From the NCBI GenBank assembly GCA_002633005.1, contig NMRA01000265.1, positions 246,761-301,226 of the forward strand: a stretch of 54,466 nucleotides of DNA, in the 5' to 3' direction. Shown one piece after another: positions 19,614 through 52,487 of the stretch; position 1 is the stretch's first letter, and every line of letters starts with the position of its first letter. This stretch comes from Phoronis australis (lineage: Eukaryota; Animalia; Phoronida). Made by a program: the position numbers and the translations under genes. The notes under the pieces were generated by a model. That model ran no database searches and had not been told where the DNA came from. It worked only from the letters and a program-made list of their open reading frames with translations.

Positions 19614-22600
19614 ATGGACGAGTTGTGGAAGTCCATCGTGGTAACTATAGTTGTCGTTGTGGCACTCGTGCAAAAAAGTAAGTCTTTGACTTGTTTAGGC
19701 CTACACAACAATTGTGTCCTGTTAGCTGTTTTTCACGCTGTCAAGTTATCTGTTACTGTATCTTATTACTTTGACGACTCTGAGCGTGTTCTTTTTGACT
19801 GAGTTAGCTGCCGTCGTCGCATATACTTTAGCCTAGTGTAAACTCTACCTGTCTACGACTGGCATATCACGTCGTAGGGCCTAACCTGAGTGTTGCTGTT
19901 TGCTGCTTAGATTGGAGAAACGTGTCAGTTGATCTTCAGTTCATCACCGGTGGTTCACTATCCTACGACCTTGTTTTGGTTCGCTTTATTTCGGTATCAC
20001 TTTGCAGATAATTTACTTGTATCTAGAAGAACTTTGAAGAAATAATTAGTCAATTTCCAGTCACCAAGTAATGCGCATGGTTTGCACCAAATTCGGGCAA
20101 TTAATCGGAATCACCGAAAGGATTTTAATCCGCTATTACTTTTATATTAATAGGCCTAAAACGAAGAATTTTGATCGTGCATGCATAATTAGTAAAAACC
20201 AGGTAGTTTAGAACTATAACAAATTTTGTACTTAATTGACATTTTTTTTGTCTAATGTCCCTAACTAAATAATAAATTGGCCTACTTAGGAAGATTATTA
20301 ATTTACTACAGTAAAGTATTGAAATGTTAAAAAATATGCTCACCAGTGAATCATACTGAAATGAGCTGTGAAGTTAATGTTGTACTGCAGATAATGCCAG
20401 GGTCCTCAATCCCTCAATTTAGGGGTTGAATATTGGCCGCATTACCCTCTGAAAAATATCAAAAAATCATGCAAAATTCCTCTTGTGAGACCTAAAAATT
20501 TCGCTCAAGGGAGATAAAAATTTTTCCAAGGTTTGACTCACTTGTAACTGACACAGACGGTGATTTGAAACACCACAAAATCTTATGTTTTGGCTACTTG
20601 AGGCAGAGCCTCTGAGGTCTGATCAAAGGGCACGGGGGGGTACAATTTTTCTTATCCCAAAAATCCCCCTGTTCAGAAGGCATATGTAGGTTTCCCCTCA
20701 GGTAATGGAGGGCGCTGAATGCACATCGTTACATGCTATAGTAGATATGTGATTGACACACTCTTTCAATGCCTTCAATAATAACACCCTGGTTTAGTGG
20801 GATAGCATATTAAGCCATCCGTGAATCTACCTCAAATACCGTACCACTTCTGTCACTACTTTCTAAGCACATCTTTGACCTGGGAATAAATTGAGATGAA
20901 TCAAAGTTGTTTTGCGATGGAAAGGTGGTTGCATTGAAACTCTGGAATTTGTAGTTTATTTAGCTTAACAGTCTTAATCCTTACTTGTGTGCACGCTGAA
21001 GTATGTATAGTTAGTCTTTTGAAGCAGTTGCTACTTTGTAACATGAGATATGGTCATTGTAGGCAGTGCCATCTGGTGCTTTGAATGTACTTCATCCCAG
21101 CCTGGGTGTGGTATGGAAGTAGACTGGAAATTGCAGAAGTGGCACTGGTGCACCTCTTATCATGGACAACCTGCCATGTGCGTCAAATACAAAGAAATCA
21201 GTGGTGGTAAGTGTGTTAGTATCAAGTAGAGGATGGGCTTAATAACCGCATGGGTGCAATACGTTTTTACATGATGGGTGCATAAATCTCTATGAAGGTG
21301 CATCTAAGACATTACAATTAGGAGAACCTCCGACTGAAAGTTCTAAAAAGGAAAACTTGTATGGAATGCCGGTAACAGTTTTGGTCATCTTCAAACCTCA
21401 CCCCTAAATTTGACTACATGAATGCAAATTATTGACTAAGCTATAACATTAGGGCTTGCCCATCAACACGGCCAGACCCTGCCCTGTAGTCTCTGATGTC
21501 TTAAATAAGAAGTTTTGTTCAGAACACTTGTGGCTAAGTTTGTAAAACCCAGCAGGTTTTGTTGATCGAAGCTATTCCATTTAGCAAAATGCCCCGCTTG
21601 ATGAAACAAAGTGTACACATTTTTAATGCAGTCTGTGGAAATTGTTATAAAAGTTGCATTTGGGAAATACGTTTTTCTCTAGATGCTCTTTATTTTCATT
21701 CAGCACTGTAACTTTTAAGTGGACACAAGCGACGCAAGCAACTTTTTCTAGTTTAAGAAGAGTACATATAATGACCTTGAAGCAGTGCCTAGTGTGGGAT
21801 TAGTGCAAGTGATTAGTAGGGATGTAATTGAGAAAGAATATGACCATGCGTTCTCCATTTAAAGCACACTCAGCTCATTTCACCCTCCCTCATTTGTAAA
21901 AGTAATGTATATTCAGTTTGCTTTGTTGGGAGAATTGAAAGTTGATGGATTGATGGCAGAACAAAACGAATTTATAATTTAAAGATGAATAGTAGTTTGA
22001 AATTTGTCAAATGGTTTATGCCCTTTGGTAGGTCTATTCATTATGTCAATAATTTTTCAATTGTATTACAAATGAATAGACAATCCTCTGTTGGAATGCC
22101 GTTTGGTAAACTGGAGTCAAGTCAGGAGATGGAAATAAAGAGTTTCAAATGGTAGTATTCTTAGTAACCCCACTGTCCAGTGCTAATGTGTGACCTTGCC
22201 AGTGTTATAAGAGAAATTGTTTTCGTGTTCAAAGAATGTGCACATGAAATCAGCACTTTCACAGACGCTTATGGTACTTTGTACCGAGTACCATGCATGG
22301 TAAGATATCCACCATCTTGCAGATGGCATCTTCAGGATCAATGAAAGTCACGTGTCAATTGTCGCCCCCATGCAGAATATTGCTGGCATAAGCCAAAATG
22401 CTCCATTCAATGGTTGTTAATTTGCCATGTGACTGATAGTTGTTACTATCGATATTGTTACTGATGTAAACTACATATGGCCCAGGACTCAATGACTTTT
22501 GAAATTAAAAAGCTGATCTGTACTGGAAAAAGATGCCTGTGTACTATGGAACTTTGTCTGCTGCATGATGTCTCAGGGTTTGTACATTATGTAGAAAGCT

Positions 22601-23679
22601 TCGCTCAGCAGCTTTTGAGTAAAAGACTGTTCTAAAGCGTGCCTGATAACTGAGAATCATTTTGGAAGTTTAAAATGGATGTATTGATGTCAAATTCCAG
22701 TTTACTTTGCAAAAGTGTTTGGTCTTTTGAACACTGGTTTTCTAAAATTAAGTGCATTGGGAATTCCAGAAGGCGAACAGGTCATCTTCTTTTTTTTTTT
22801 TACTTTCATAACCACATAATTAGTGTCAGAAATCACACACCAGGTTGAGTAATCGAGTATGGGTACAATTTTATTTCAATAAAACTGCAATAATATTTCG
22901 GGCAGTGATAAGTAACTTCCATCTATATCCCCGGCACTACTGGGAAGTCACGAGTTTATTATTTGCCTTATGGAAATCTCAATCTGCATGTTATCAAGTA
23001 TTACGCTGTGACTGTGCTAATTTCACGTATGCATTTTGTGAATGGTTAAGCTGTTACCAAGTTGTAAGCAGCATCATGTAAACGGGCTTTAGTCAGTTTA
23101 ATTGGCTGTCTGCTTCAGTCATACTGGTAAATTTAAAAGCTGCTTTTGGGATTGTGAATTAGTTTCTGGGGAATATCGAAACACTGTGAGTTAAAGTTGA
23201 GAAGGACATTTTCTTCAGCATGGCATTGAAATAGAAGACCTCCGGCATTTGACCCTAAACTAATGTAAGAAAATCCCATATTTACAGCACTGTTTCTTAC
23301 CTGTCACGTGAAAGAACATACTTCAGGATTTGTCTAGACTATAATACATTGTTTAAATGTTCTACATGTATATTCACATGTTAACATTGTGCATATTTCA
23401 GCTTCTGAAAGATATGTTCGTGGCTGTGTAAATAAATTGTTTGAAAACACATTCTACCGTCACGAAATACCATCAACCATTCGACAGAACTACTGTGTTA
23501 CATCCAAGTCAACGGGAAACAAAGTAATCAGCAGAGACGAGGATGTCAAAAAGGCCAAACAGATCTTCTGTTTCTGTAACTCTAACGATGGCTGCAACTC
23601 AACGACATGGCTCCGTGGACATTTCAGTACAGTTCTCTTGGCCTCTGTTATGTCATTGCTGTTACTGAGAGCTTTTTAA
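19614..23679 (+). CDS. Ly6/uPAR (three-finger) GPI-anchored protein, Quiver/Sleepless-like, gene A (161 aa, 3 exons)
   Basis: Exons 19614-19677 (MDELWKSIVVTIVVVVALVQK, donor gtaagt), 21063-21206 (SSAIWCFECTSSQPGCGMEVDWKLQKWHWCTSYHGQPAMCVKYKEISG, acceptor ttgtag, donor gtaagt) and 23402-23679 (ASERYVRGC...NYC...IFCFCNSNDGCNSTTWLRGHFSTVLLASVMSLLLLRAF*, acceptor tttcag). 64+144+278=486 nt in frame, both introns phase 1. Ten Cys in LU spacing with CxC..CN followed by a hydrophobic GPI-type tail. AATAAA at 24176. Confidence 0.92.
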
Positions 23680-25218
23680 TACCAGCTGTCCTAGTCTCAG
23701 ATATGAGCACTGTTGTATAAAATTGTAACATTCCATTGTCTGGTCGTATAACATTATGTTCATATGTAAAAAGAAGTTATAAGTTGTCGTAGGAAGAATT
23801 AAATCAAATACTGGAACTGGGAAGTGTCATGGATCGTGACAGGTTTTCATTCCACCCTTTCGTCCGTCCCCCCCNCTCCAATAATATGCTCACATATAAT
23901 GACACTGTGTCTACATTTTGCAATATTTCAGCTTGTCTGTTTTGACCAATAGATGGTGTTTTGGTTAGGTGGGGAAGTACATTGGAAATGAATATAAGTA
24001 TCTATTGGTCAAGACATCTATAGCTTTTTGCTGTAATTCATGAGGTGCAGATTCACCGCCATTAATTTGAGTGCATTATGTGTCTCAGTATTTGATTTTA
24101 TTCATTCCTACAATGGGATGTTTAGTATTGTTAGATAAAGTCCTTTGTACATAAAAGAGGCATAGAAATGGATTTAATAAAATGTTTTACCTTGTTGGAT
24201 TTATGAACTCTTAAAATATCTGGTTTTGCTTTTTTCACATTTCAGCCACAATTTTTACCAGGGAATAATGTATTAGCACTTAGGAGGAATGTTCTGTGCT
24301 GATTTGCCATTACTTTTCATTTATCCATGTAATTTGAGTTATCAAACAAGATGTGTTTCCGTGACTACTGTTGTATAACTTTTAGGTCATTAGATTTACA
24401 TGTTAAGCATTCATTTCAGGAATATTATTTTGCTCCATGTATTCGTAATTACTGTCCCTTCCTTCTGTGTTGATATATTTTTTCTGGTGACTTATGCACA
24501 TTCATGACCATATCCAAATATGTTTTGGTTAAATAATAAGATAGAAATCATTACAGAAAACACGGTATCAGATTTTGTGTCTGCCTCCTTTTTCAGGTAA
24601 TGCAGCAATTTGGATGCCAAATTTATTTGTTAAATGGTCATTCTATTGTACTCTCCATATCTTTCCAGAGGTTTCATTGTTGCCAACTGCCCTGCTTCGT
24701 CCCACGTCTTGCTATGTCATGCTATTTTCTGGCTCTTTGGTTTTGGGGCTTTTATATACAATTTCCACATTCCATTTCACACCAGTGGCATAAGAAGTAC
24801 TGCTAGCGTGCCATGGATAGGGTTTACACAGATATTCCTCCCTTGTGGCATCCTACTTTTTCATGTTGGAATGTTGGCAACTGTGGAGCTTGTGCTAGGT
24901 TTTCCTATGGAAAAACTATACTGTCAGTGTGTCATCTGTAAATATTGCTTTATACTGTAATATTTTGAGCATATAGTTTGGATGTATTTTTCGGAAAAGT
25001 GGAACAATCTTGATTTTGTCTGATAAGAATTTTCGTTGAAGTGAAATGCAAAGGTAAAACTAGTGATTGCGAAATAAGGTAAAATGCACATTTTGGCAAG
25101 GCAGAAATGTACTTCATAAAGTATCTAGCACAACTATCCCCAATCAAAACTTGCTGAAGTTCTATTAGTGCTAATGCAAATGTGACCGGTAGTAGCCAGT
25201 CTTTCACTGTGTCTCATA

Positions 25219-25284
25219 GCATTTTTTGCTGTGGACATGCAGCATTTCTTGCGGTGGACACGCAGCATTTCTTGCTGTGGACAC
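25219..25284. repeat. 23-bp tandem repeat, about 3 copies
   Basis: gcagcatttcttgc(t/g)gtggaca(c/t) repeated. Confidence 0.75.
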
Positions 25285-26435
25285 AATACTTTTCCACTTG
25301 CTGCATTTCCTTTTCACATAGCATTAGATATCGGCTTGGCACTGGTTAGGAATCAAGATCCTTTACATCTGAATGGATCTACAGCAGAACTTCATTCACC
25401 AACATTGTGGTTATTGCGAGCTAACGCTTCCGAGTGCATGCGTTTGTACAGGTGAGACTGTAGTCTTGATGCAGTCTCTATTGGTGCAAGAGTCTGGTGT
25501 GCATTAGGAAATCAAGGCCAGTTGGTCTTTTTTCTACCTTTTTAAGCTATGATCCGATTTGTTGGTATACTTTAACATTTCAAATTTTCTGATTCAAATA
25601 TTTTCTCAGTTGCTGCTCAATCATTTCATATGTCTGCTGTTCCTTTTTGGGATAACAGTAATGAGATATGAAAACAGAACTAAAGTTACTCAAACCGAAG
25701 TGTTCTGCTTGAGTGGCAGTGATGTCTCGAAGCGATTGTCACAACGCTCTTTTTTTATCAGCTGAATTAAAGCTCTAGCTTTGGCCACGTTTTATATGTT
25801 CATCTGATTTAATTGCACCTCTTGACCTCATCCTTCATTAAACAGAGATGTGCTCTAGATTCTAAGATTGGATTTGAGACCAGTTGAGCTGTTGTTTAGC
25901 TGGAGCCTTTATGAATTTTTGAGTCACCCATTCTTCGAAACGAGCAGTGTTTTAGCCTCTTGACAAATTGCATGTACCCACATATGGTAGACTGATTATT
26001 TTCTGAGAGCACTGCAGTATGTCCCATGCAGCTAACGGGCTGATTAAGCGGGTACTTACTAATGTGTCAGAGGTAGTTTATGTGGGTGAAAGACTGGCGT
26101 ATAGATCCTGAAATTGCAACTGAAGATTTTTGTATGTGTGCATTCTACATTTAATGGTTACTGCACTTTTTAATGGTGCGGTGCTTACGTTCGCTTTTTT
26201 ATAATAAACAGACTATTATTATAGTACAATGTATTGAGTTTCACGTACTTTTGCACCAATGGTGTATTGTAGCGTAGCATAAAAGCAGTGGGAAAGGACC
26301 TCGGCATCTGGAATGGAAGTGTACGTTTACATACTGTGTATTTAGGTCCATTTACTTTTGTCCAGAATGTGGACAGCCATGCAACACAAGAGATAGATTT
26401 GATTTATAATTTCTTATCTAGCATATGCAGGCTGA

Positions 26436-26583
26436 AAAGCAGGAAAATTTGGCACTGTAGTCTCCAAAGCAGGGAAATTTGGCACTGTAGTCTCCAAAGC
26501 AGGGAAATTTGGCACTGTAGTCTCCAAAGCAGGGAAATTTGGCACTGTAGTCTCCAAAGCAGGGAAATTTAGCACTGTAATCT
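26436..26583. repeat. 30-bp minisatellite, about 5 copies
   Basis: aaagcagggaaatttggcactgtagtctcc starting at 26436, 26466, 26496, 26526 and 26556; the middle copies are identical. Confidence 0.95.
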
Positions 26584-27536: not shown

Positions 27537-30400
27537 CTAATGCTTTGCTGGCAATAAAAGGATGAAGGTTACTGCACCCAGGAATACGACGATAACAAGT
27601 AACATCTGGAATTCCACCGACAACAAAACAAGGCAACAAAAATGCCAGGCGGATATAGCGCCACTGTGTAATCTGGAACGTTCCTATACGAACTATGTTC
27701 ACTGTAACTGAAAGCAATCACGCCACTTTTTCACGTGGATAACTAAGTGATGACCAAGACTGGTTATTGGCAACAGGTCCATACAGCTTACCGTTGGAAT
27801 GTTGCAAGATAGTCGCTCACAGGTAATTGAAATTCAACTCCTGTCCAGTTGACAGGAAGAGAAACTTTTGTGGAATTTTCTGATGTACAGTTAGGGGAAT
27901 GTAGTCCTAACAGAGTGTTATTTGTTTTTCGCCAGGACAAATCTGTAAAAAACAAAATGCGGTTGGATTGGACTACTAACCAACATAAATCGAAAGGCTC
28001 CAACTTTTAAGTTCTAGAGGTTTATTCTGAAAGTAATAGAACATATGCTCTGATAGAATGCCAGTAATCTCATAATAAAAGAATTCTGTTCTAAAAATCA
28101 CACCACACAAACATATGTTCAACGTAATCCTGCTCCTTAACACTAACAATCATCACTTCATAATTACCACACAATGTGCCACAAATTTACACGCTGCAAT
28201 ACTAAATTTACAGAGCTGAAATGGAAAACTTAAACATGTAGTGTGACTGTATTCATTCTTATATTCCAGTAATAATAATTAACAAATTGACCACAATATA
28301 TATATAAGATCTACTGTGTTCATGATTAGACAAAACATCCAAGTCAGGGCCCTCGTTCAACTGAGGGGAAAGATTCCTTCCAACCCTCGCAGTTAACAAA
28401 ACATTCTGAACGTGATAATCTGTATGAGTAAAAGTGAATTTTTTAATCACTTGAGGTGAATTTTGGACCTGACAAGAAGAATTTCAATTGATTTTAAAAT
28501 ACCTTTGGAGGAGAATGGGGATGATATTCGGCCCAAAATCGAGGGCCCTGGAAGTGCATATTTCCAAAATGTACATCAACTATCAGACACCAATTGGCAA
28601 ATCGACTCATTGCCTGCTAACAATAGAATATGGCATTACCTTAGCTATCACATTGACTAGTACAAAGACTCAAAGTACCACCCTGCAACTTCTCAGTCAA
28701 TATTGAAATAAAGAGTGAGGTGTGAAAAGAACACAGTAATGGTGGACCAAATTCTATACACAGATCAATGATACAGTTAACAACTTGTGTGCATAGAGTC
28801 TACAACCATGTCAACTAAATGCCTATAAAGGACAGCGTAAACCTACAATAGTTACAGCAACAAGGCTGCACACACAGATGCCACGGTGGCGATAGCAAGG
28901 CTAACGACGGAAGCACGTATGTATTCGCTGGTGTTGCACAGGTCACTGCCACACTTGCACTTTCTAGTGTATCCTTCACCGGCTTCGCGGTACTCGCAAT
29001 CCTCTAGATCAGGTTTGTCTTTACCAAAGAGTGGTTTCACTGCACCGCACAGACGAGATGTGATATTATATGCTGAAAAAACATTCGCAGAAATTGAAAC
29101 GAGAATGGAGGTGTAGTGAAATTTCGTAGCTTAAAATGACATACCCACCCAAAGTTATGTCACTTTTAACACAGCATAATCAAGAGCTAAAAAGTGATTA
29201 CCAGTTTGTCCAGGTAAAAGGTGGTGACAGCATTCAGGGCCCTACGTAACTTCTAGAGAGATGACAGAGCATGAGATACCCCACCAATTGTCAATTTAGT
29301 GGAGCAGAGGGAGAAAAGGTTGAGCAAGGAAAGAAATACTTGGGAAAACGGTGCCTTTCAAATAAGTTTTCAAATTTGAAAAATTTGCAGAAACAGATTT
29401 TTGTTCCTTTGTAATAAATTTGCACAATGCATAATTGTAGGTCATTTTGCCATTATGGATTTTATCGCATTTTCTTCATGAAAAAATAAGACGTATACAA
29501 GGAGATGAACATCACATAAGTTCATCGTAACCAATAGCATCGGAGTGTTTTAGTTTCGTGCCACAATACTCACAATTCTTACTAATCCAGTTCAGTTCAA
29601 AAGTGCTAGATGTTCACAGACCAGGACTGTCGTGAATTAGATTTAAACAAAAATAGCAGGCTTACTCTCTGGCACAGTGCCCGATTTTTCTGTGTTTAGT
29701 TGATATATTTCACTGTTGACAAACGTCAGCCCGTGAGATATTGGCGAAATGGCTGTACACGTTATACGCAAGGTACGGTTTCTTTGGTTCCAAAAGGGAT
29801 CTTTTCTCAATATTTTATCATTTAAATGGAACCCAGTAATTTACATAGTATCAGCATCTATATATATAAGAACAAAATTGAAATGGAAAGTTTTGCCACG
29901 CCAAACTGCATGCCACAGCCTGCCTTTAAGTCCTGCAAGTGAAAGGTGATTTAAGTCTGCCAAAGGCAATTCTTGACATGAACAGGTCAGAATCTCCGAA
30001 TGTTACTTGTGCAGTTAATGAATAAGAAAACATGCTACATGGCCCTTTCTCAGTGACAAAATTAACAGGCGGGAAATATACCCTTACCACAGAGCCTGAA
30101 CTCCAACAACAGCCAGGCACCACGGCTGTAGATCAGTTCTCAGGTACCAGTGCATATTGACAGAGACATATCACATGGACTTTAAAATTAACAATTCTAC
30201 TATCAATTACTTGTTATAAAACAACAGGTTATAAATGCTCAACACTCATGTGAATTCCGCCATTGTCCTTTTTGCGGATAACGAGACACATCATATAAAG
30301 GATTGTGGGATAGCCGTTTTCTCGAGTAGCACCACCACTCACAAACATTAATTGAGTTCACTTCAAGTTTTAGAAGCATTTCAAGCAATCAAGTTAGGTC
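27537..30400 (-). pseudogene. Degraded exons of a putative N-glycosylated, possibly Ig-like, membrane protein gene interleaved with gene B
   Basis: Exon-like blocks bounded by AG/GT: 29857-29666 (192 nt, phase 1-1, one TAA; ..PFWNQRNRTLRITCTAISP.., donor gtaagc) and 27942-27792 (LSWRKTNNTLLGLHSPNCTSENSTKVSLPVNWTGVEFQLPVSDYLATFQ, four N-glycosylation sequons, donor gtaagc). After an 84-nt intron, 27707-27537 contains a frameshifted TM-like MLLVIVVFLGAVTFILLLP. Weaker blocks at ~30180-29926 and ~30330-30245. Confidence 0.45.
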
Positions 30401-36400: not shown

Positions 36401-39400
36401 AATGGCCACTAGGTGGCGCAAACTACGTCGAATCCATCTGAAAACAGTAGGATAGCGTCATCTCACTAATAGGTGCCTACATACCAAATTTCATGAAAAT
36501 CCGTTCAATACTTTTGAAGATACAAAGGTAAGCGTAAAAAACTAAAATTGCCACTAGGGGGCACACCGGTAGTCGGATCCGACCAAAAGTCGTCATCTTC
36601 CGTTGTTAACATCATATAAATATACTTACACAATTTGTAAAGATCCTGCGAACGGTTTAGGAGATACAGCCATAGGCGCAAAAAAACAAAACTGCCACTA
36701 GGAGGCGCCACAGTAGTCGAAATCGTCGGAAAATCATCGTCAACCATCCTCTACATAGTAAGCATATACATGCCAATTTTCACAATCATCCTTTGAGCGG
36801 TTTGGTTGATAGAGGGGTGGACGCACAAAAACAGACTCGAAAACACTAAAAATGGCCACTAGGTGGCGCAAACTATGTCGAATCCATCTGAAAACGGGAG
36901 GATAGCGTCATCTCACTAATAGGTGCCTACATACCAAATTTCATGAAAATCCAATAAGGACTTGTGAAGATACAAAGGTAAGCGTAAAAAAATTAAAATT
37001 GCCACTAGGGGGCACACCGGTAGTCGGATCCGTCCAAAAGTCGTCATCTTCCGTTGTTAACATCATATAAATATACTTACACAATTTTGTAAAGATCCTG
37101 CGAACGGTTTAGGAGATACAGCCATAGGCGCAAAAAAACAAAACTGCCACTAGGAGGCGCCACAGTAGTCGAAATCGTCGGAAAATCATCGTCAACCGTC
37201 CTCTACATAGTAAGCACATACATGCCAATTTTCACAATCATCCTTCGAGCGGTTTGGTTGATAGAGGGGTGGAAGCACAAAAACAGACTCGAAAACAGTA
37301 AAAATGGCCACTAGGTGGCGCAAACTATGTCGAATCCATCCGAAAACGGCAGGATAGCGTCATCTCACTACTAGGTGCCTACATACCAAATTTCATGAAA
37401 ATCCGTTCAGGACTTTTGAAGATACAAAGGTAAGCGTAAAAAACTAAAATTGCCACTAGGGGGCACACCGGTAGTCGGATCCATCCGAAAGTTCGCACAT
37501 GCCGTCCCATTCATGAATGGAACATATGTGCCAAATTTCATGAATGTATGTCAAAGGGTTTTGGAGATAGAGCAGCGGACGCCGGACGCCGGACGGACGC
37601 CGCCCGGACGGACGGACGGACAGAGATGACGGCATAATGCGTCCACATATAAATATGTGGGCGCATAAAAATGACGTTCTACCGTTATTCTGCTGTTAAA
37701 GTTGTGGATCGATCTTTAGTGACGGCTTCGGCGCCATGAAATATTGCGTCACCTATTGGCCAGTTTCTTTTTTCGCCGATTCTTCGATCAACTCATTCTT
37801 TCACAAGGTTGCGTACATGTCACAAATTATCGGAACTGGCTTCACTTCATTACAAGTTTTTAGAATTTTGATATCGAAAAACCGAATTTCAGAAGAAATT
37901 TTGCTGCTGCTAAGCTATAATCATCTCCCAACAGATGTCACAAAAATTTATTAAATGGCGCGTGACACGAGCGTACTGTTTTTGAAACGATGACCTACTT
38001 TTCACTGTTAGAAAAGGCAGAGAGTTACGCAAGAAAATGACGTTTATTGCATTGTTTTTCACTTAATGGCTCTAACGGGCAAGGTGAGTGTCGGTTGTAT
38101 CCCAGATTTTGAATGCACTCCGTCCAGTCTTTAGCTTTACATGTTGATAGAAGTTTCACGGTGAGGTGACGAGCAGAACTACTCTGGATGTGTGCAATTT
38201 CCGGTCTACGGAAGAAATACACACAGCCACAGGGGTACTTAGCTGTACTTTGACGAGTCTTCATACAGCTACAGTCAAGTGACCTAATTATCGGACGTTT
38301 TGGCACATTTTGCATTATATTTAATTGAAAATACTACGGATTGTTGTAAATTCTTTGCTGAAATAAAGATTTACCTTCACGGAATTGTTCTGTTACTATA
38401 TCTTGTCACTGAAAGCCACATTTATGTTCCGACTGATCTTCAAAAATCCCAATAACCAAACCTTCGGAGAACCTAAATATCGGACACCATGATTCTCCAT
38501 ACGCCACACCGCGGAAAACTGACTAACCGTGTAATGGCCGCGGACACCTTGTCGCCAAATTTCAGCTCGAGTGTTTTGGCATATATGCTGCTAGAACCCA
38601 AGTCCATTCGCAGATAAAATGAAATCTGATGATGGCGCCAAGTCGTTTCGATGAATTAGTGCAGACGACTGAAGCACGTGCAAACTCACTGCAGTTTTTA
38701 GTATCACTTAGGCTTCTTGATATGACACCCGCACGTGCGCAGTCGGGATTTGACTTGAGTTTAAAAACAAACGAAAAAATGGAACAATGGCATATTGTCA
38801 GTTCAATGAGATGGTGTCATTGTGGAAAAAGATTTTATTTTCAACTTTTATAACCGATTTATGCGATCGTCCATTTTAGGCCGACTTGGGGGTCTAAATT
38901 GCACCCTCTCTCGGTGAAATCAAAACGAGGCAACGCTGTAAAAAACGAGACGGTGCCGGACATTGAACGCATTACAACGGAACAAAAATTGGTGTCATTT
39001 AATTCTCAGATTATGCTTCAAGTAAGATTCTATGAAATGTCCGATATTTAGGTTCCATCCGATAATTAGGTACACTATGTGTAGCTGGCTGGCTAGAAAC
39101 AACGTGACTTTGATGTTTTAATCAGTGCGAGGCATAATTCGCTGATAAGCTTCCAGCGTATGAAGGGTTATAGGAGCTTCACCGTCTAGTCCAGCTAAGA
39201 CAGTGGTCACTGTCCAGTCGTCGAGACTCAAATCTCAATCAATCAGAATTGGAATTTCATAATCGAGAATAGACTGCCAATTTCAAGCCACCGAAAGTCA
39301 AACAAAGGACATATGTGTACACTTGATGAATCAATTAGTGACATCAACCCAAATTACTTACTGAAGCTTACTGCTGAAAGACAGAAAAATGCAAAAACGA

Positions 39401-39410
39401 TACTTTTCAT
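28852..39410 (-). CDS. Ly6/uPAR (three-finger) GPI-anchored protein, gene B (158 aa, 3 exons)
   Basis: Exons 39410-39362 (MKSIVFAFFCLSAVSF, donor gtaagt), 33811-33605 (SAADTDSKTDVLRCFSCSTVVNATDYHPNCGDESGDVDSVPKVTCRPEENACFKYVTVQTKVIGGENVA, acceptor tcttgccag, donor gtgagt) and 29072-28852 (TYNITSRLCGAVKP...DCEY...KCKCGSDLCNTSEYIRASVVSLAIATVASVCAALLL*, acceptor tttttcag). 49+207+221=477 nt, phase-1 introns, 10 LU Cys. Exon 1 is the least certain part. Confidence 0.88.
32075..32670 (+). mobile_element. Interspersed repeat family; other copies at ~35565-35691 plus 37670-38275 (split by the HINE) and ~46500-46795 (inverted)
   Basis: Shared blocks tcttccttgagt..aaattattta, tcacctattggcca, tcattacaagtttt..aatttcagaa, taacgggcaaggtga and agtcttcatacagcta. 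Confidence 0.7.
34855..35515. mobile_element. MITE-like element with ~150-bp imperfect inverted arms
   Basis: aaaagtctagatgccaggtcccaattcaatcct..tacaaaaatgatcacaca (34857-34917) is the reverse complement of tgtgtgatcatttttgta..ggattgaatagggaccaggcaactagacttt (35452-35512). Confidence 0.65.
35692..37669 (+). mobile_element. Non-autonomous Helentron-associated (HINE/pearl-like) element with 451-bp tandem repeats, in intron 1 of gene B
   Basis: 5' aacaagagc. Sub-TIR atgcgcccaca (35717) / tgtgggcgcat (37656). Units of 450-451 bp (anchors 36094, 36544, 36995, 37446). (GGAC)n microsatellite at 37577-37621 and 3' palindrome atgcgtccacatat-aa-atatgtgggcgcat. Inserted in an A-run. Confidence 0.85.
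38465..39061. mobile_element. MITE-like element with 18-bp perfect inverted repeats
   Basis: gaacctaaatatcggaca (38469-38486) / tgtccgatatttaggttc (39038-39055). Confidence 0.65.
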
Positions 39411-43327: not shown

Positions 43328-43468
43328 AAAGCGGAAATGTACCATCAAAGAACCATTTTAATTTGTCTTATTTAATTTAGAACGCTTAAGGATACAAAAC
43401 CTTTCCCAATTTGTCCCCGGTTCTGTTAAGGATAATATGTAGAACCTTACAGATACACTGTAAGTCTC

Positions 43469-43620: not shown

Positions 43621-44278
43621 TAAGTCTCTATATTCAACAAAATATCTGCAAAGGTAGAGAATTTGACTCTGGAATGATAACACCATTTTCTGAAAGCAGA
43701 AAGTCTGTAGAATTTTTTGCTTTATATCAAGCTGCGTCAATTTGTTCAAGTGACTTTTTAGTAATAGACAACAAAAAACAAAGATACAACCATAGCACAA
43801 CGACGGTATCAACAACATGTCCAAATATCATTTGGTATAAAATGTTCAAGGTGAAATCTCAAAAAACGATGTCATATTTTTCTAAAATTCCTTTTCTTTT
43901 ATTAACGAAGACTTTTTCATAAAATCATACCTATTGTGATGGCCCTTTAAGCAAAAGTGGATCAATTAACGTAACCGTATGAGATTTCTGAGTTTGAAAA
44001 AACGCGACAGTTCGTCATTAGATGAGACCGTAGTCGGCGTATAAATAACCCACCGCGACTAGATAATTACCTGGTGAGTTGGACTCGAGCTATGGTAACG
44101 AATCAGTTCTTCTCTATACCTGAAACCGTCTCTATTCCGAAGGGGTAACAACACAAATCGCGATCAGTTTTATACCGGTAAGTAGCCTTAATCAAAAGTT
44201 AGTTTTTCCTAAGGGGGACTTGTACAGCATGCCTATCAGCATAACCCGTAGCACAAGTTGAGTTATTTCCACGGTAAA

Positions 44279-44818
44279 CTACATATTTACTGCTGTTATT
44301 GCAACTAATAACACCATCGGCGAAACAGCTGGGTAAAAGCTGGCGCTGTCGTTACACAAGTCCGAGAAACACCAGCATATTTCTGACGAGTAACCAATTA
44401 GAGGCAATTCCTGGCAGCCATCTTCGCGATTGCCAACGCTGTGCTCTGGCCTCTTCGCTCGGTCGCCTTTTTTGATGCAAGATTTCACGACTATGTTCAT
44501 GACTAGAAATGCACAAGAAATTGTTTAAACAAGATTTGCCCTGCACAATGCACAGCATTGAGTTAAAAAAATGTCAGTAACAGAGAGGTTAAGATTGGAA
44601 GATATAACCCCGCTTTTTACGCCAAGAACACAAGGCAGTTGTCCTGACAATGTTCAAAGAAAGATGAAGAAAGCTCTAATTAATCGGCATGCTCACGATG
44701 TTTTTGCTTTTGTTCATAGGGCGCATGGCTGACCGCCCACCGCCCAGAATACGCGTGCATGGATTCCTAGTGCAGTCGTTTATAGAAGCAAACCACTGAT
44801 GGTTGCATCAACCATTCA

Positions 44819-44851
<33 letters not shown>

Positions 44852-46127
44852 GTACGCATGCACGCACGCATACACGCATATACATATACATTACATAAGC
44901 GAACACTTATCCCACTAATACAACAAAATGTCCCCCCGTTCCCATACGTGAAACCAGGAAGAGATAACCAGTCCTGGTGAAACCCATAAGAACGGCGTGT
45001 CGACGGCGTTTTTGATCAGATACGAAGATACCTGTGCCCGATTACATGAAACAGTCCCGAATAGGGACTCAACCATGTTCCCTAAATCTACAGGGTATTT
45101 GTGGGCTCATGAAAACACTGATTATCCTTTCTTATGCTGTTTGAGTCTCATTACTCATTGATACAAATGGAGAGTGATTTCTACATTGAATTCTCAATAT
45201 TATTGAAAATAAGTAGGTATCTTTCCATGCAACGCCCTTAATTTAAGAATTATTATTGGCTCAGTTTTTAGTTATATTACTTAAAAATGTCGTAAGTCAA
45301 AGGGGAGCTCAAATGGTGGAAAAAAATTACTTCTGCGAGTAAAGAACGAAACAAATACGCAAAATTTAGGGAACTTAGTCGAGTCTATATTAGGGACTGT
45401 TTCAGGGCAACCGGGCACTGGGGCCTATTTCAAGAAAACTAACTTAGCTGAGACAAATTCTAAATTTCAGTCAATTTTAGGGACTGTTTCAGGGCAACCG
45501 GGCACTGGGGCCTGTTTCAAGAAAACTAACTTAGCTAAGACAAATTTTAAATTTCAGTCAATTTTAAGATTAAACTTAAACTTGTTTCAAACCGTTTCAA
45601 ACACTAGATCTTAAGTTTAACTTAAGTTGTTGACTTAAGTATTGTCTTTAGTTAATGTTGACCAACTTACCGGATGTGGACGTTTCACAGTTTGGAAGTT
45701 GAATCAATTCTTAAACACAAATCAAAAATGAACTTAAGTAAGTTTCTTGGAAGAGGCCGCTGGTTCCTAAATTTGAATCCGCCTATCCCACTTACTCTTT
45801 CCGGACAATCGGTCAGGCACGTATCGAGCAACCGGTGCGTCCATTTTTGTTGTCGTCTTTAAGCACATGTCGCAGTTTGATTTCGCTTGATTTTCCTTTG
45901 GGATATCTTCGTCACAATCCATACAGTCTATACACCGAATGCCTGAAACGGGCAAGGTATTTTGATCAGCGAATTTGAGAGTGATGCAAGTAATAAAATA
46001 GGACTGAGTAACTAACTGTACATAAAGTCATTTTAATAGACTTTTTCATGTTGACGCTGCATGAATACACACCCTTTGCAACGGAGATGGAAAAGCTTGA
46101 AAGTAACAGAAACGTCGTAAGTTCCAT
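44279..46127 (-). CDS. Ly6/uPAR (three-finger) GPI-anchored protein, gene C (141 aa, 3 exons)
   Basis: Exons 46127-46073 (MELTTFLLLSSFSISVAK, donor gtgtgt), 45942-45796 (GIRCIDCMDCDEDIPKENQAKSNCDMCLKTTTKMDAPVARYVPDRLSGK, acceptor cgtttcag, donor gtaagt) and 44502-44279 (IMNIVVKSCIKK...GCQE...ICWCFSDLCNDSASFYPAVSPMVLLVAITAVNM*, acceptor atttctag). 55+147+224=426 nt, phase-1 introns, 10 Cys. Confidence 0.9.
44817..44890. repeat. (CA)n(CG)n alternating purine-pyrimidine microsatellite
   Basis: cacacacacacacacacacgcgcgcgcgcgcgcacgtacgcatgcacgcacgcatacacgcatatacatataca. Confidence 0.9.
45391..45760. repeat. ~87-bp direct duplication overlapping the left end of a MITE-like element, in gene C intron 2
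   Basis: tagggactgtttcagggcaaccgggcactggggcct.tttcaagaaaactaacttagct.agacaaatt.taaatttcagtcaatttt occurs twice; ggcctgtttcaagaaa / tttcttggaagaggcc form inverted ends. Confidence 0.7.
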
Positions 46128-47566
46128 GGTAAATGCCAATCGGTTATGGCCTAATCGAGATTCCTTCAAGTAGGCCTATTATCGTGAACCATTCACGTGC
46201 ATGTAACGCGACTCGTGCACGCTTCATCGGCGACCACGGTGGCAAATACACGAGACGAGTACTATACAAGATTTGGTCCAGCATCTCCTTCCCTGTTGAA
46301 AACATGAAGCCGGGACCTTGTTGCGAGCCGGAGTGCATGCAAAACCTGGGAGCCTACCCACACTTGCAGCGGTTTCAGAGCAATCTAATAAACGTCATTT
46401 TCCTACATAATTCTCAGCCTTGAATTGCAACAAAGAAGTCTATCATCGTTTCGCAAGCAGTACGCTCGTGACGCGCGCGTGCCATTTCTCATTTAATTTT
46501 TTTGCTTCATCTCTCATCGGCCGGGAGATGCAAAATTTTGTTCGGGAATTCGGTTTGCTTGTATTGAAATACTAAAAACTTATAACGAGATGAAACCAAA
46601 AGCCGATGCAAAATATCGCTCCACAACTTTTTAAAAGCACAATAACGGTAGAACGCCAGTTTTTTAACGCCAGTAAATACTTTAGTTTACTCAAGGAAGA
46701 TTGTAGTTTTGAATGAAACAAATTTTATGTTAGGTTTTATTTGGCCATTTTAGTCTACATCAACTTTTAGTGTACATCTTTGTACCAAGGCTAAGAAATA
46801 CCTGGAGCAAATAACATTTCATGGTTATTGCCCTTACGTTCGAAAAACGTACTTGCCTACCTTATAGGGACACACAGATGGCTTACATGTACACTGCGTT
46901 ACATGTCCACTATAGGTATGCCATAAGCAACTGGTTGAGTAATTTATCGTAAACAGCGACAAAGATAATCTTACGTACCGTAGTAGTAAAGCGAAATCGT
47001 AAATTTCTGTTTATGAGGAGTTGGAACTTTTTCCGAGGAACACGACACATTAGCCTACATGTACCTTGACGTAAAACCCGCTTGAGCTCAAAGGAACAGG
47101 CAATCAGAGCAGCTTATAGGGCCCAATACCCATTATAGTGCGCGACCAAAAAAGGAAAAAATAAGCCTGAGGAAACTCCACCGGCAAACTGTTTTTAGGA
47201 TTCATGAGATTATTTCACGTTTCAGTAGTTCCGCCAGCGAAACTTTAAAAAAAGTCGGAGCTATTGGGTTTTTGTTTTTATCCCATACGCGTTGCATCAG
47301 TAGAGGGAAATACGACCATGTAATAATATTTTCCGTATTCACCTCCCGCACTACTTCAATAGTGACCTCTGACATGGAAGGTTCAAAAGGTATATGACAT
47401 ACATGTAGGTTATTGTCGCCTCGACGTCGTTAGCCGGTTTGATCATCAAACTTTCTAAAAATATTTTAAAGTAATACAATTGCAGCAGTGTAAATAACAA
47501 TCAACACGCAATCAGGTCTCAATCCTAACATGTGGAACCGGACTGTTAATTATATGACATCATGTC

Positions 47567-47813
47567 TATGCGCGCACCCAGGGGGGCTCGGGGGCTCCCC
47601 CCTCCCATTCGAAGGTAAAAAGGCCCGTCTCAGAAAAACAAAAAGTCCGAGAAAACGAGACAAAAGTCCACTGAAAAGGCGCATACGCACAGTTCATTGA
47701 CCTGAAGGTAGTACCCCGTTTTTTTAGTCCTCCCGCTTTTTTGTTAGCAAAAGGTCCACTTTGTCAAAGATTCGAGCCCCCCTCCACCACATTAAAGGCT
47801 GTGTGCGCGCATG
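47567..47813. mobile_element. MITE, same family as 43071-43327, opposite orientation
   Basis: atgtc|tatgcgcgcacccag...ctgtgtgcgcgcatg|ctgtc. The internal gtggac.tttt..agcgggaggact block is shared in reverse. Confidence 0.75.
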
Positions 47814-50012
47814 CTGTCTCAGATTTCATTTGCTAAATGTTACATATTGTCTGCAACTCAGGCGCGGATTCCTCGGTAACTACAATATATAATATTGTTT
47901 TAAGCATGATCAAGGCTGATTGATAAAACACGCACGAAAACAACCTCGCCTTCCAACCAGGCGAAAAAGCACGATTTTATTTTGAATGTAAATCTTGAGC
48001 CTTCATACATTCAAACGTGTTGCACTTTGAAGAGCCCTGTAAATTATGCGTATTCATGAACTTGCCCACGAAATAACGGGTCACGACCTTGAAGAGTGCA
48101 GTAGTTAGATGCAAAAAGTTGTTGGCATCATATTTCCAGAAACCTCTGGTTCTAGATCAAAAAAATGTGTTAAAATTATGCAATAACGATACGTCACCAT
48201 ATCGTCACGGACACAAGAACATGATCATATCAGTAGAAATATATTTACATGTCACATTTACACACAATTTTGGAATGCTAAGTTTTGAGATTTACAGGAT
48301 AACTTCATTCAAAATTATGAAGCAGGGAATGTGCCTTACTGGTCCTAGACTAATAGACTATAGAGGTCAGTCGGATCAGTAATGACGCAAAGATGTTGTT
48401 TAGACCTTCAACTTCTGTCATGGAATACTTAGAATACACTCGCCTACAAAAGGAGGTTGTTTTCACTTCCTTGCAAATGCTACCTGTAGAGTTATTAGGA
48501 AACGGCATACTTAGTGGCTGACCAAAATATTCTCTTCAAAACTCCCAAACAAAGAATCAAACAGGAAACAAATTAAACAGAAGAAAAACCACCACCAGGG
48601 GTACTCTTCGAAAACAGGATGCAAAAACATGTTTAATGATAGATCTGTATGTAGTTTTAACTTGAAAAACTAAACTGATGTTTTCATAAATATTGACCTG
48701 GATAATTTATTATGACAAACACAGACTATTTTCCTGATGGTGTTCACCTTTGGAATAATGCACGACAATACACAAAACTGTGAGTAGAATGTACCTCACA
48801 TGCATATGTTTCACTGCTAAATCTAAGAAATTCACAGAGATTTGTCACCTTTCAATACTTTGCAAATAGGTCTCGAAGAACGATGTAGAAGCTTCTCCCA
48901 AAAATAGTGCTAAGCTATGACATCCTGGTCATACAGTGCCTTCCGTTTTAATGGTCAACAACCTCTGAATGTGAAGTGGCCAAGGTTGGAAACTCTTGGC
49001 AACCTTGTCAAAAACTGATTCTCATTCACAAGTCTATATCGTGGCTCATCTGTTTGGAATGGAAGTCACATTCTATCTTAGTACAAAAAGATTAGAGGTA
49101 TTTGTTATGTGACTGAGTAATCAACTTTAAAATTTGTGTTTTAGGAATAAAATAAGCCGAGGAAATGAATATTTCCTCATAAAGTTTGCCATCAGAAGCA
49201 GAAATGGCTTTGAAAACTACGTTGTTGTTTGAGAGTAAACATAAGTCGCCCCAATGGTTATAGAAAACCTAACACTAATTCAGCAATTGCCCAAAGAACC
49301 AGAAAACTTTGGTAATACCATCCTAGGTTTCATTCAGGTCTAATCTTTTCTGACAGCTAGCAAAATGAACATTTTAATACCAAGTTGCCTCAATACAGGG
49401 GTGCGTTCTGTAGACATAAGCTTGCACATGTGGTGAATAATCTTTGATTATGGAACAGCAATAAATTGTTGATTCAATCCCATAATGCAACATTCCAACC
49501 TCGCCAACTAATCACTTCAGTGGCTGCCACTTTACTAAGATAAGCTAGTAAGCTCCGGAGCACTTTCAATAATATTCAACTATAACTTGTGTGATTTTGC
49601 AAGAGCTTTTTAGCAAGAAACTTTATCTACATGCATAAATTGCTACCCCCGTAAATTCATAAGGGTCAAGCAAATATGCAACTTTAATCGGAGACTGGGC
49701 ACTTAATCATATTATGGATGGACAATTAACTAAACCAAAACAGTGAGTGAGTGCTCAGTGGCCAATCTACCAGGGGGCGACAGGGGTTAACCAACCCTCA
49801 AGAATGAGCATTTAAAAATACTCTTATAAAAACACTGAATGAGTAACAACACCACCCCCAGTAAAATTGTAGATCCATGATTGCTTCATCACTTGAGTAG
49901 TGTACAATGGAAGGGCTTTTACTCTTATAAAATCCAAAAAGTACTGAGAGGCACATGCTGTATCTATAATATTTGGATGTATGATCTAGATGAAGGACTA
50001 TGACCAGCATGT

Positions 50013-52487
50013 TTACATTCTCCTTATAAACAACAGAACAACTGAAGCTAACAGGACAGTCCATATGGAGCCACAGTAACGATGAGAGGTGTTACAGTAG
50101 TCAGTCTCACAATAACATTCACGTTGTTCCCCGGCATTGGTGTCCCGGAAATAGCAATCTGAGAAGGACCTTGCATCACGGGCCATTTGGACACAGATCC
50201 TTGAATCAACCGTTGACACTACAAAAATGAAAGAAAGAAATTTAATTACAGCCCTACTGGTAAGCAGTGTTATAGCTGAAGAGGTACATTTTCATTTTAA
50301 ATATCACAATAGATTAAAATAACACTGAGAACAATTGCAGACAACATACAATTAGAATGAAAGCATCTAAAGGTCCTATCATACCTAACGAGGGTTCTAC
50401 GCAAACTGTATCAATTTAAGCGTTTAACTTTTGTCCTGAATGAAATCTCACGCCTTCGTTTAAAGTGGACCTTGCACGCTAATTCCTTAACTATGCAATT
50501 GTTTGAATTAGTTCGAAACACAACATATTGTGACCATGTGAATGTTGAAAAGTGCCAAATGTTTTTAAGAAGGAGTTTTGTGTTGAAAATGATCAGCCTT
50601 AAAGGACTCAACTGTGTCCAGTAAGGATCACGACATGGTGTTGGGGAATAACACTGCATGATGCAGGCTATGTGAGCCCCCAAGATATGTCATTAATGCA
50701 AAGGTCACCTATTGGCAGACTTTTTGTTCTCACAATTTACAAGTTGTCAATGAATACTACTGCACTATGTTTAGCGTAGATGATGTTCAAATAGCACTGT
50801 CGTTTAATTCCTGTTATACATTAGAATAGTTAGGCACATGCAAATACATAAAAATCATTAAAGTTGTTTCAAAAGACACTCAGGTAATTTTAGTCTCTCC
50901 TGTGTATTGTACAAAACTCACTTCTGTTTACTCTTCACGGCATAAAGATTAATGAAAAAAATAAAACTTTGCCAGAGTAAAGCAAATGGGGATTATCAAA
51001 TTTCAAAATTTTATTGGTATGTCCCAAAACACCCAAACGACATATTCCCTCCCATACCCACCTTTGGTCATCTATTTGGGTCCCTTTTGTGTGTTAGTGA
51101 AATTTACATTTCAGCTGTCTGTCATTTTTGGAAGTACAAAACTGTAAAAAAATTGGCTTTGAATGCCCAAGCCCGTGAACATAGTTTATTCACAGAAATT
51201 TTTAAAACCTTTTTGTCGTGCAAGAGATCACCATACTTTGAATTTGTCCCTTAACTACAATGACGATCAACAGTGCCATCCACACACTGACTTACCCTAG
51301 AACAAGTCACTCCGGAAACAAGTTGTTGATAGGTATGGAGGCTGTGTGAATGCTATTTAAACTTATCCCACTAGTGACAACTTACTCCACATTATCGAGG
51401 TGAGGTAACTTGTTCTAGGGTAACTTGCACCACTTTTAATTGCTGTGTGGTTGCTAAAGTGGAGTAAGGTGGAAGTACTAATCAGCCTCCTATTCTTATG
51501 CATGTCCATTGTCGTACACAGAGTGATAACTTTCACCTTAATCTAGTTATCGAATAATGTGTGCGTGTGAACAGTCCACTTAAAAGTGGAGTAAGGTGCA
51601 CTAGTACAAGCTGTTGTAGGTCAGGCTGTGTGTGGATGAGAGTAATCTTACCCAAGTGTTTAAATTTGTGGTAGTGTTCTCGAACTGTCGTCGATACTTT
51701 CATACAAACTTCACAGTCATCTCGCTTAGGCCAGGACTCCATAGGCTCTTCGCATTTAATACCATAACTTCCACGGAATACGTTGCACTCGTAGCATTTC
51801 ACCTTACGACGCTTACTGATAACAAAATCTGAAAGTAGTAAATAATGGTGACCATTATGTTGGAGAAAGTATTACGAGAAATCCACTTTAACAAAAACAC
51901 TGGTAACTAAATACTGCTAAACTAACTGAGTTAGGTGAAAACGTATCATTCAATTTTCGTAACTGGAAGCTTTCACCTGTCCCAAGTTTGCTTACTTCCA
52001 GTTTTGTGACTGTTCTGCCATTTTGCCCTTCACTCAAAATAATTACAGTCAAATCAATATGGGTAGCTTTAAGTCGTGCACTTTTTTGTCATCGGCATCA
52101 TTCCCCGGTAAAGGTAGACAAGAGCGAGCGTTGGGCCTATCAATTGTATCATAAACTGAGTCAGCCAAAGGTGTGATAGTTCGCAAATTTTGAACACGGA
52201 ATTATTCTACAGTGTTGCCGGTGTAACTCTCTGACTCTGGACCTGGCCATGTCACAGTAGCAGAAAATGGCATGCACACCCACAACAGCTAAGTGCAATA
52301 TCTACAATTTAAACTTCAAGTAACAACTGAAATTGACCTAGTTTACGTAGGTTAAGAACGCCATAGTTGTGATTTTGAAATGATCCATGTGCACACGGAA
52401 GACGAAACTGTGCTGCGTACCTGAGCCCTGTCCAGACGACTCATGGACGAAAGTCAAAAGGACGACAAATAGAATACACTCTCTCAT
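50013..52487 (-). CDS. Ly6/uPAR (three-finger) GPI-anchored protein, gene D (149 aa, 3 exons)
   Basis: Exons 52487-52421 (MRECILFVVLLTFVHESSGQGS, donor gtacgc), 51828-51652 (DFVISKRRKVKCYECNVFRGSYGIKCEEPMESWPKRDDCEVCMKVSTTVREHYHKFKHL, acceptor tactttcag, donor gtaaga) and 50218-50013 (VSTVDSRICVQM...DCYF...ECYCETDYCNTSHRYCGSIWTVLLASVVLLFIRRM*, acceptor tttttgtag). 67+177+206=450 nt, phase-1 introns, 10 LU Cys. Confidence 0.92.
51292..51423. repeat. Short inverted-repeat element in gene D intron 2
   Basis: ttaccctagaacaagt (51292) / acttgttctagggtaa (51408), a 16-bp perfect inverted repeat. Confidence 0.7.

What the first reader, a model, noticed from the sequence alone, without database searches (positions are those of the whole stretch)
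19614..52487. Hidden cluster of four intact, highly diverged three-finger (Ly6/Quiver-like) GPI-anchored genes
Seen: four genes with the same architecture (signal-peptide exon, exon with Cys1-5, exon with Cys6-10 plus GPI-type tail; all eight introns phase 1, GT-AG, frames close exactly), yet almost no identity outside the cysteines. B, C and D are tandem on minus; A converges on them. Established: LU proteins such as Lynx1, Drosophila Sleepless/Quiver and fish Bouncer modulate nicotinic acetylcholine receptors (nAChRs) or K+ channels or mediate gamete recognition, and snake three-finger toxins derive from this family. Inference: an old, maintained and functionally diversified repertoire of endogenous toxin-like modulators or recognition proteins in an invertebrate, probably uncharacterised.
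Basis: partly seen in the sequence, partly recalled or inferred. Interest (0 to 1): 0.85.

Follow-up and report, generated by a model that had tools for sequence, protein, structure and literature searches.

The report
Ordinary Ly6 cluster around Crimpled-like gene
Four real, spliced and expressed genes for small three-finger (Ly6) proteins with predicted membrane anchors sit together in an invertebrate genome, which is the textbook arrangement for this family, and one of them belongs to a deeply conserved subfamily that likely helps seal epithelial cell junctions rather than acting like a toxin.

Summary
All four three-exon genes exist, with phase-1 GT-AG introns and ten domain cysteines. RNA reads support all eight junctions: seven by split reads, one by loose read ends.

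The interpretation needs revising. The cluster is 1+3:
- Gene A belongs to a conserved, essentially one-per-species subfamily found in 41 named spiralian species. It scores 102 bits on the subfamily profile and shares its cysteine spacing; B-D score at most 5 bits. RefSeq calls seven relatives 'crim-like', after the Drosophila septate-junction protein Crimpled; orthology to fly Crimpled was not tested directly.
- B, C and D share a different spacing, and no relatives were found. C is absent from one of three RNA libraries in which A, B and D rise two- to sevenfold.

Three-exon phase-1 structure, clustering and extreme divergence are textbook Ly6 features (PMC6600238). Many invertebrate phyla average 30-100 such genes per genome (PMC13719153). 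Nothing here points to acetylcholine-receptor or potassium-channel modulation, or to toxin activity. This scan has reported similar clusters in other genomes. New members of a known kind; low interest.

The parts
19614..19677 (+). Gene A exon 1 coding part: signal-peptide-like N-terminus
   Evidence: Split reads 19677/21063; hydrophobic N-terminus
21063..21206 (+). Gene A exon 2: LU Cys1-5
   Evidence: Split reads; Pfam QVR E 1.5e-4, below the curated cut-off as a half domain
23402..23679 (+). Gene A exon 3 coding part: LU Cys6-10, Asn, 26-aa GPI-type tail; crim-like subfamily
   Evidence: Split reads; 17 hits at E<=0.001 among 1.84 billion proteins; spliced model scores 101.7 bits on the subfamily HMM
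23680..26213 (+). Gene A 3' UTR, about 2.5 kb, AATAAA near its end
   Evidence: Stranded depth and read starts at 26140/26213
28014..28851 (-). Gene B 3' UTR; ends about 1.8 kb from A's 3' end, no overlap
   Evidence: Read starts at 28014-28048; AATAAA
28852..29072 (-). Gene B exon 3 coding part: Cys6-10 and GPI-type tail
   Evidence: Split reads 29072/33605; QVR E 0.011
33605..33811 (-). Gene B exon 2: Cys1-5
   Evidence: Split reads; QVR E 1.5e-4
39362..39410 (-). Gene B exon 1 coding part: signal-peptide-like
   Evidence: Loose read ends at 33811 match 39362-39391 at 29 of 30 letters
44279..44502 (-). Gene C exon 3 coding part; its 3' UTR runs below 43600
   Evidence: Split reads 44502/45796 in X2 and X3, none in X4; QVR E 0.015
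45796..45942 (-). Gene C exon 2: Cys1-5
   Evidence: Split reads; no QVR match
46073..46184 (-). Gene C exon 1 (ATG at 46127; transcript start near 46184), 130-nt first intron
   Evidence: Split reads skipping 130 nt and read ends at 46184
48251..50012 (-). Gene D 3' UTR, about 1.8 kb
   Evidence: Stranded depth and read starts at 48251
50013..50218 (-). Gene D exon 3 coding part: Cys6-10 and GPI-type tail
   Evidence: Split reads 50218/51652; QVR E 0.0075
51652..51828 (-). Gene D exon 2: Cys1-5
   Evidence: Split reads; no Pfam match
52421..52585 (-). Gene D exon 1 (ATG at 52487; transcript start near 52585)
   Evidence: Split reads 51828/52421 and read ends at 52584-52585

Best explanation
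[quoted passage not shown] Shown: gene structure, splicing, strand, different expression of C, and A's membership of the subfamily. Predicted: signal peptide cleavage, five disulfides, three-finger fold (modelled for A's Lingula relative only), and replacement of the 23-26-residue tail by a GPI anchor. Inferred: the subfamily is orthologous to fly Crimpled (about 0.8), and A then works as fly Crim does, escorting or stabilising the claudin/Neurexin-IV-type septate-junction complex that seals epithelia (about 0.6 overall). B-D share the spacing C7-x12-C8-x1-C9-x4-C10-N, unlike A, so they likely arose by old local duplication separately from A and diverged in their fingers and expression, as insect Ly6 clusters did.
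For: Junction reads for 8 of 8 introns, one of them through loose ends. Pfam QVR on 6 of 8 half-domain exons, all below the curated cut-off, and on 6 of 7 full-length relatives of A at E<=0.01. A's spacing 2-6-13-9-16-22-24-1-5 matches the subfamily pattern 2-6-13/14-x-16/17-22-x-1-5 in 40 of 43 complete members. The spliced A scores 101.7 bits (leave-one-out range of members 73.9-166.2) against 5.2, 3.0 and -2.0 for B, D and C. The subfamily appears in 41 named species among 80 hits, one row each except Lingula and Heterobilharzia, and its tree groups molluscs, cestodes plus trematodes, and rotifers with strong support. Seven records carry RefSeq's 'crim-like' name. The domain model of the Lingula relative (pLDDT 78) has LU, three-finger or TGF-beta-receptor ectodomains as its first 35 of 50 VIA rows. 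Coding exons differ from the X1 contigs at 4 of 805 letters against 91 of 3612 in UTRs. Crim mutants fail to form septate junctions (PMC8006247, passages); the four fly junction Ly6 genes have conserved insect orthologues (PMC3058042, passages). Tandem Ly6 duplicates diverge in expression (PMC4476152).
Against: No arthropod sequence was in hand, so orthology to fly Crimpled rests on RefSeq's automatic names. UniProt labels 15 of the same hits 'Protein quiver' or 'Protein sleepless', in two cases (Mytilus, Littorina) the same protein that RefSeq calls crim-like. A is a long branch (1.63) of unresolved position and scores at the low end of the subfamily. Fold matches are weak: Z at most 5.2 and no Foldseek E<=0.001. 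B-D were not folded, and no GPI or signal-peptide predictor was available. PMC8006247 is inconsistent on Crim: an assembly factor in the text, a core component in Table 1. The three raw RNA libraries come from one study and their tissues are not given, so C's absence in X4 could be a missing allele rather than regulation. No function was tested for any of the four.
Confidence: 0.65

Rival explanations
1. The cluster is a repertoire of endogenous prototoxin-like modulators of nAChRs or Shaker-type K+ channels, as the first reader proposed (Sleepless/Lynx1-like).
For: All four are QVR-family-like; UniProt auto-labels 15 of A's relatives quiver or sleepless; Foldseek's top rows for A's relative include snake alpha-neurotoxins; Sleepless does modulate both targets (PMC6600238).
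Against: The UniProt label is family-wide and sits on the same proteins that RefSeq calls crim-like. A shared fold shows no function, and TGF-beta receptor ectodomains match equally well. No neuronal expression or receptor link was seen here.
Confidence: 0.15
2. All four, or A, B and D, form a co-regulated septate-junction Ly6 module, analogous to the four non-redundant fly proteins Bou, Cold, Crok and Crim.
For: A, B and D second-intron reads per million all rise in X4 (A 2.3/2.4 to 10.9; B 9.4/8.0 to 26.1; D 4.9/4.6 to 30.1). The fly junction Ly6 proteins are also very different in sequence.
Against: Three libraries from one study; neighbouring genes often co-vary. B-D show no similarity to A's subfamily and no conserved relatives were found, whereas the fly junction genes have conserved orthologues. 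C does not follow the pattern.
Confidence: 0.1
3. B-D are fast-evolving gamete- or immune-recognition proteins (Bouncer-like or Ly6 immune-like) and A is an unrelated neighbour.
For: No relatives were found for the B-D exon-3 peptides; C is on in two libraries and off in a third.
Against: Coding differences are fewer than UTR differences in the contigs compared, with none in B exon 2 and one in D exon 2, which is no sign of diversifying selection; C was not covered. B and D are expressed in all four runs.
Confidence: 0.1

Closest known systems
Drosophila Crimpled (Crim) and the RefSeq 'UPAR/Ly6 domain-containing protein crim-like' proteins of spiralians (XP_064635069.1 Lineus, XP_074660199.1 Tubulanus, XP_067943631.1 Watersipora, XP_071100315.1 Haliotis, XP_070200719.1 Littorina; Lingula XP_013398538.1 unnamed)
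   Same: Gene A: same cysteine spacing, 29-40% identity over most of the protein, 101.7 bits on the subfamily HMM, same length class and tail.
   Different: A is a long branch outside the mollusc, annelid and flatworm groups. The fly protein itself was not compared here. B-D do not belong.
Quiver/Sleepless family, Pfam PF17064 QVR (invertebrate GPI-anchored single-LU proteins)
   Same: Ten-Cys domain ending C-x-C-x4/5-C-N, signal-like N-terminus and hydrophobic tail; QVR is the best or recurring Pfam match on 6 of 8 half domains.
   Different: Half domains stay below the curated cut-off, and the spliced proteins could not be scanned. No evidence that any of the four is the Sleepless orthologue.
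Clustered LU genes in general (human 8q24 and 6p21 clusters; Drosophila Ly6 clusters III and V)
   Same: Three exons, phase-1 introns, an intron splitting the domain, small clusters, highly divergent paralogues with divergent expression (PMC6600238; PMC4476152).
   Different: Different lineage; here a conserved near single-copy gene lies convergent to three unplaced paralogues.
Snake three-finger toxins, Lynx1, Bouncer
   Same: Predicted fold class only (for A's relative).
   Different: Snake toxins are secreted 58-75-residue chains in the matched PDB rows; these domains are 91-109 residues with GPI-type tails. No sequence similarity to any PDB chain.

Membership tests
Ly6/uPAR (LU) single-domain GPI-anchored proteins | Three exons: signal exon plus two domain exons with phase-1 introns | tested here: met
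   definition in PMC6600238
Ly6/uPAR (LU) single-domain GPI-anchored proteins | Ten conserved Cys ending in a Cys-Asn motif | tested here: met
   4 of 4 genes
Ly6/uPAR (LU) single-domain GPI-anchored proteins | Three-finger fold | tested here: inconclusive
   Modelled only for A's Lingula relative: first 35 of 50 VIA rows are LU-type folds but Z<=5.2. The four window proteins themselves were not folded.
Ly6/uPAR (LU) single-domain GPI-anchored proteins | N-terminal signal peptide and C-terminal GPI signal | tested here: inconclusive
   Hydropathy only: hydrophobic N-termini and 23-26-aa tails ending in 15-22 uncharged residues with 0-3 residues after them, like 14 relatives of A. No SignalP or GPI predictor was available.
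Ly6/uPAR (LU) single-domain GPI-anchored proteins | Disulfide pairing and actual GPI attachment | not testable with these tools
   Needs mass spectrometry and PI-PLC release
Pfam PF17064 QVR | Whole-domain score above 27.3 bits | tested here: inconclusive
   Half domains score 14.6-23.2 bits on 6 of 8 exons; A's relative P0001 scores 36.8; spliced proteins were not scanned
crim-like spiralian subfamily (gene A) | Cysteine spacing 2-6-13/14-x-16/17-22-x-1-5 and profile score within the members' range | tested here: met
crim-like spiralian subfamily (genes B, C, D) | Same spacing and profile score | tested here: not met
   5.2, -2.0 and 3.0 bits; different spacing
Drosophila Crimpled orthologues | Groups with arthropod Crim rather than other fly Ly6 proteins in a tree | not tested
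   No named arthropod sequence was returned. Support is indirect: RefSeq names and unnamed arthropod QVR clusters of 156-165 aa as nearest Atlas rows.
Drosophila Crimpled orthologues | Required for septate-junction assembly | not testable with these tools
   Needs knockdown and barrier assay
Prototoxins (Lynx1, Sleepless) | Binds and modulates nAChR or Shaker | not testable with these tools
   Needs electrophysiology
Secreted three-finger toxins | Secreted, ending at the last cysteines without a GPI tail | tested here: not met
   All four carry 23-26-aa hydrophobic tails after the Cys-Asn

The most novel reading that the evidence does not exclude
Gene A is the true orthologue of fly Crimpled, making Crimpled an ancient single-copy septate-junction component shared by arthropods, most spiralians and this animal, and its neighbours B and D, whose RNA rises and falls with A's, are physically clustered, co-regulated junction partners: a genomic septate-junction Ly6 module.
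Probability: 0.1. Interest if true: 0.55.

Novelty: new member of a known kind. Interest (0 to 1): 0.2.

Why it matters
As found, it adds four correct, RNA-backed gene models to a family with tens of members per invertebrate genome. The modestly useful point is that one Ly6 subfamily stays near single-copy and alignable across brachiopods, nemerteans, annelids, molluscs, bryozoans, flatworms, rotifers and this animal, although Ly6 orthology is usually hard to trace. If it is Crimpled, it gives a handle on septate-junction assembly outside insects. Three full-text searches listed no paper on Crimpled outside insects, but RefSeq already uses the name.

Tried and rejected
1. C exon 1 at 48805-48748: rejected; it lies in D's 3' UTR and RNA shows a 130-nt intron from 46073. 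Identities used the wrong C model; those replace them.
2. Word-indexed homologue search with the four exon-3 ORFs: 0 of 255 candidates at E<=0.01. This search is insensitive (it also missed A's relatives), so it is weak evidence that B-D lack orthologues.
3. Sequence search of PDB chains: B exon 3 gave 2 unrelated zinc-ribbon hits; the A-subfamily profile gave 0.
4. Full-length model with signal and tail helices: the VIA list was swamped by helical hairpins; repeated with the domain alone.
5. ESM Atlas could not read the window's own exon; only A's relatives were searched.
6. No whole genome is held, so the total Ly6 count and synteny were not tested.
7. A fifth LU gene in the window: none by pattern; 0 of 104 other ORFs of 62 aa or more in the flanking and intergenic stretches matched Pfam at E<=0.005 (2 VWA-region ORFs were scanned).
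8. Placing the organism: the neighbouring VWA ORF found no relative (0 of 410 candidates), and A's branch is unresolved. The run index listed no holder on record as RNA; the raw RNA runs came by species label and were validated by laying them.
9. Overlap of the convergent A and B 3' ends: rejected, 1.8 kb apart.
10. Tree rows: 43 of 46 chosen relatives had a complete domain; P0007, P0091 and P0092 were dropped from the HMM, and P0007 was put back for the tree.
11. Nilton et al. 2010 (PMC2889608) is not held; it is known here only through citing papers.
12. No complex prediction was run, as no specific binding is claimed.
Full report
Observation. A six-frame scan shows four exon-2-like and four exon-3-like cysteine-rich segments at the stated places. 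Strict patterns for the two halves each occur exactly four times, against means of 0.02 and 0.07 in 60 shuffled windows (patterns were written after seeing the genes). The final models are A (+) 19614-19677/21063-21206/23402-23679, B (-) 39410-39362/33811-33605/29072-28852, C (-) 46127-46073/45942-45796/44502-44279 and D (-) 52487-52421/51828-51652/50218-50013. They give 161, 158, 141 and 149 aa. All eight introns are phase 1 and GT-AG, with five domain cysteines in each of exons 2 and 3.

RNA. Three raw RNA-seq runs of one study and one contig set were laid on 43600-52700 and 19300-36040. Seven introns are bridged by split reads at exactly the predicted sites. The eighth, B intron 1, lay partly outside the laid stretch; 105, 135 and 309 reads leave exon 2 with loose letters matching B exon 1 at 29 of 30 positions. 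Strand agrees for all four genes. RNA corrected my own first model of C, whose first exon is only 130 nt upstream of exon 2. Per million reads, second-intron counts in X2/X3/X4 are A 2.3/2.4/10.9, B 9.4/8.0/26.1, C 5.9/4.6/0 and D 4.9/4.6/30.1. Tissues are not given, so C's absence may be regulation or a missing allele. Against the X1 contigs, coding stretches of A, B and D differ at 4 of 805 letters and UTR stretches at 91 of 3612 (Fisher p 7e-5). I tallied these by hand from the tables; three differences in A's last exon were not itemised, and if all were coding the count would be 7 of 805. Two of A's three listed coding differences are synonymous.

Divergence. Pairwise LU identity is 23-31%. 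Against shuffles with fixed cysteines, alignment z-scores are 1.5-5.1, highest for B-D. B, C and D share C7-x12-C8-x1-C9-x4-C10-N; A has x24, x1, x5. The cluster is thus one gene plus three.

Gene A. Its last exon found 17 proteins at E<=0.001 among 1.84 billion; the best are from Lingula, Lineus, Tubulanus and Owenia. A profile of seven of them returned 80 proteins, with 41 named species across brachiopods, nemerteans, annelids, molluscs, bryozoans, flatworms and rotifers, one row per species except Lingula and Heterobilharzia. No arthropod or deuterostome name appeared, but that search needs shared words. The spliced A matches the subfamily's cysteine spacing and scores 101.7 bits on a profile of 43 complete members; members score 73.9-166.2 when left out, and B, C and D score 5.2, -2.0 and 3.0. 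The tree groups molluscs, cestodes plus trematodes, and rotifers, as expected of orthologues; A is a long branch of unresolved position. RefSeq names seven relatives 'crim-like'. UniProt's automatic label on 15 hits is 'quiver' or 'sleepless', twice on a protein that RefSeq calls crim-like, so I read that label as family-wide. Nearest Atlas clusters are unnamed arthropod QVR proteins of 156-165 aa. Orthology to fly Crimpled is therefore likely but not directly tested.

Fold. The Lingula relative was modelled whole (pLDDT 83.8) and as the mature domain (78.4). For the domain, the first 35 of 50 VIA rows are LU proteins, three-finger toxins or TGF-beta-receptor ectodomains (best Z 5.2, rmsd 3.5, 86 aligned); Foldseek agrees but without E<=0.001. 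The four window proteins were not folded.

Genes B-D. Pfam QVR matches four of their six domain exons below cut-off. No relatives were found, by one insensitive search. Their function is open; by family precedent they are likely surface proteins that bind and escort or tune other membrane proteins in particular tissues.

Mechanism. Shown: transcription, splicing, differential expression, A's subfamily. Predicted: secretion-pathway entry, five disulfides, GPI replacement of the 23-26-residue tail (hydropathy only). Inferred: A assists assembly or trafficking of the septate-junction complex, as fly Crim is required for junction formation (PMC8006247, passages; that review lists Crim as an assembly factor in the text and as core in Table 1). 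The four fly junction Ly6 proteins are mutually dissimilar and have conserved insect orthologues (PMC3058042, passages).

Comparison with what is known. Three exons, phase-1 introns, an intron within the domain and small clusters are the stated norm for LU genes (PMC6600238, passages). Insect Ly6 clusters show highly divergent sequence and expression (PMC4476152: abstract, Introduction and one Discussion section). A 2026 survey found LU genes in all 387 invertebrate genomes examined, averaging 41-101 per genome in bryozoans, echinoderms, annelids, hemichordates, nemerteans, molluscs and a brachiopod (PMC13719153, parts 1-2 of 4 and a term search; supplements not seen). PMC7848756 gave only a reference. 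Searches listed no paper on Crimpled outside insects. Earlier notes of this scan describe similar Ly6 clusters in octopus, scallop, sea urchin and an arthropod as ordinary (unchecked); none lies near this locus or resembles A.

Verdict. The finding is real and well supported as gene models, and it is an ordinary new instance of a known kind. The toxin-like modulator reading is possible for B-D but has no specific support, and the best-placed gene points to epithelial junctions. Interest 0.2.

Noticed in passing
window 9740-10810 (+): Intronless ORF with a signal-like N-terminus, a VWA domain (Pfam E 6e-19), a Cys-rich and Thr/Arg-rich stalk and a transmembrane helix, interrupted in frame by one TGA at 10451-10453.
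   Followed up: partly
window 19677/21063: 11 X4 reads and 2 X3 reads carry an extra A at gene A's first splice junction, next to a run of six A. It would shift the frame; slippage or an alignment effect is likelier than an allele, since X4 has 128 junction reads.
   Followed up: no
window 24905-25255: A 349-nt skip with non-canonical ends (TA..GG) in A's 3' UTR, in 17 X2 and 7 X3 reads and none in X4; probably a deletion allele.
   Followed up: no
window 19400-36000 and 48200-52000 versus 36000-48200: CpG observed/expected is 0.54 and 0.45 over most of genes A/B and over D, but 1.0 between them, as expected of invertebrate gene-body methylation; the stretch holding gene C is not depleted.
   Followed up: no
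window 36062-37492: Tandem array of about 450-bp period, 3.1 copies, 93% alike, inside B's first intron; 35511-36040 beside it draws very deep repeat-derived RNA coverage.
   Followed up: no
proteins P0027, P0046, P0056, P0065, P0067: Several flatworm and one gastropod member of the crim-like subfamily are named 'steroid dehydrogenase' in NCBI, probably a propagated mis-annotation from a fused gene model.
   Followed up: no
window 48331-49174: D's 3' UTR differs from the X1 contig at 40 of 844 letters and many sites are heterozygous in the raw runs: a highly polymorphic species.
   Followed up: no
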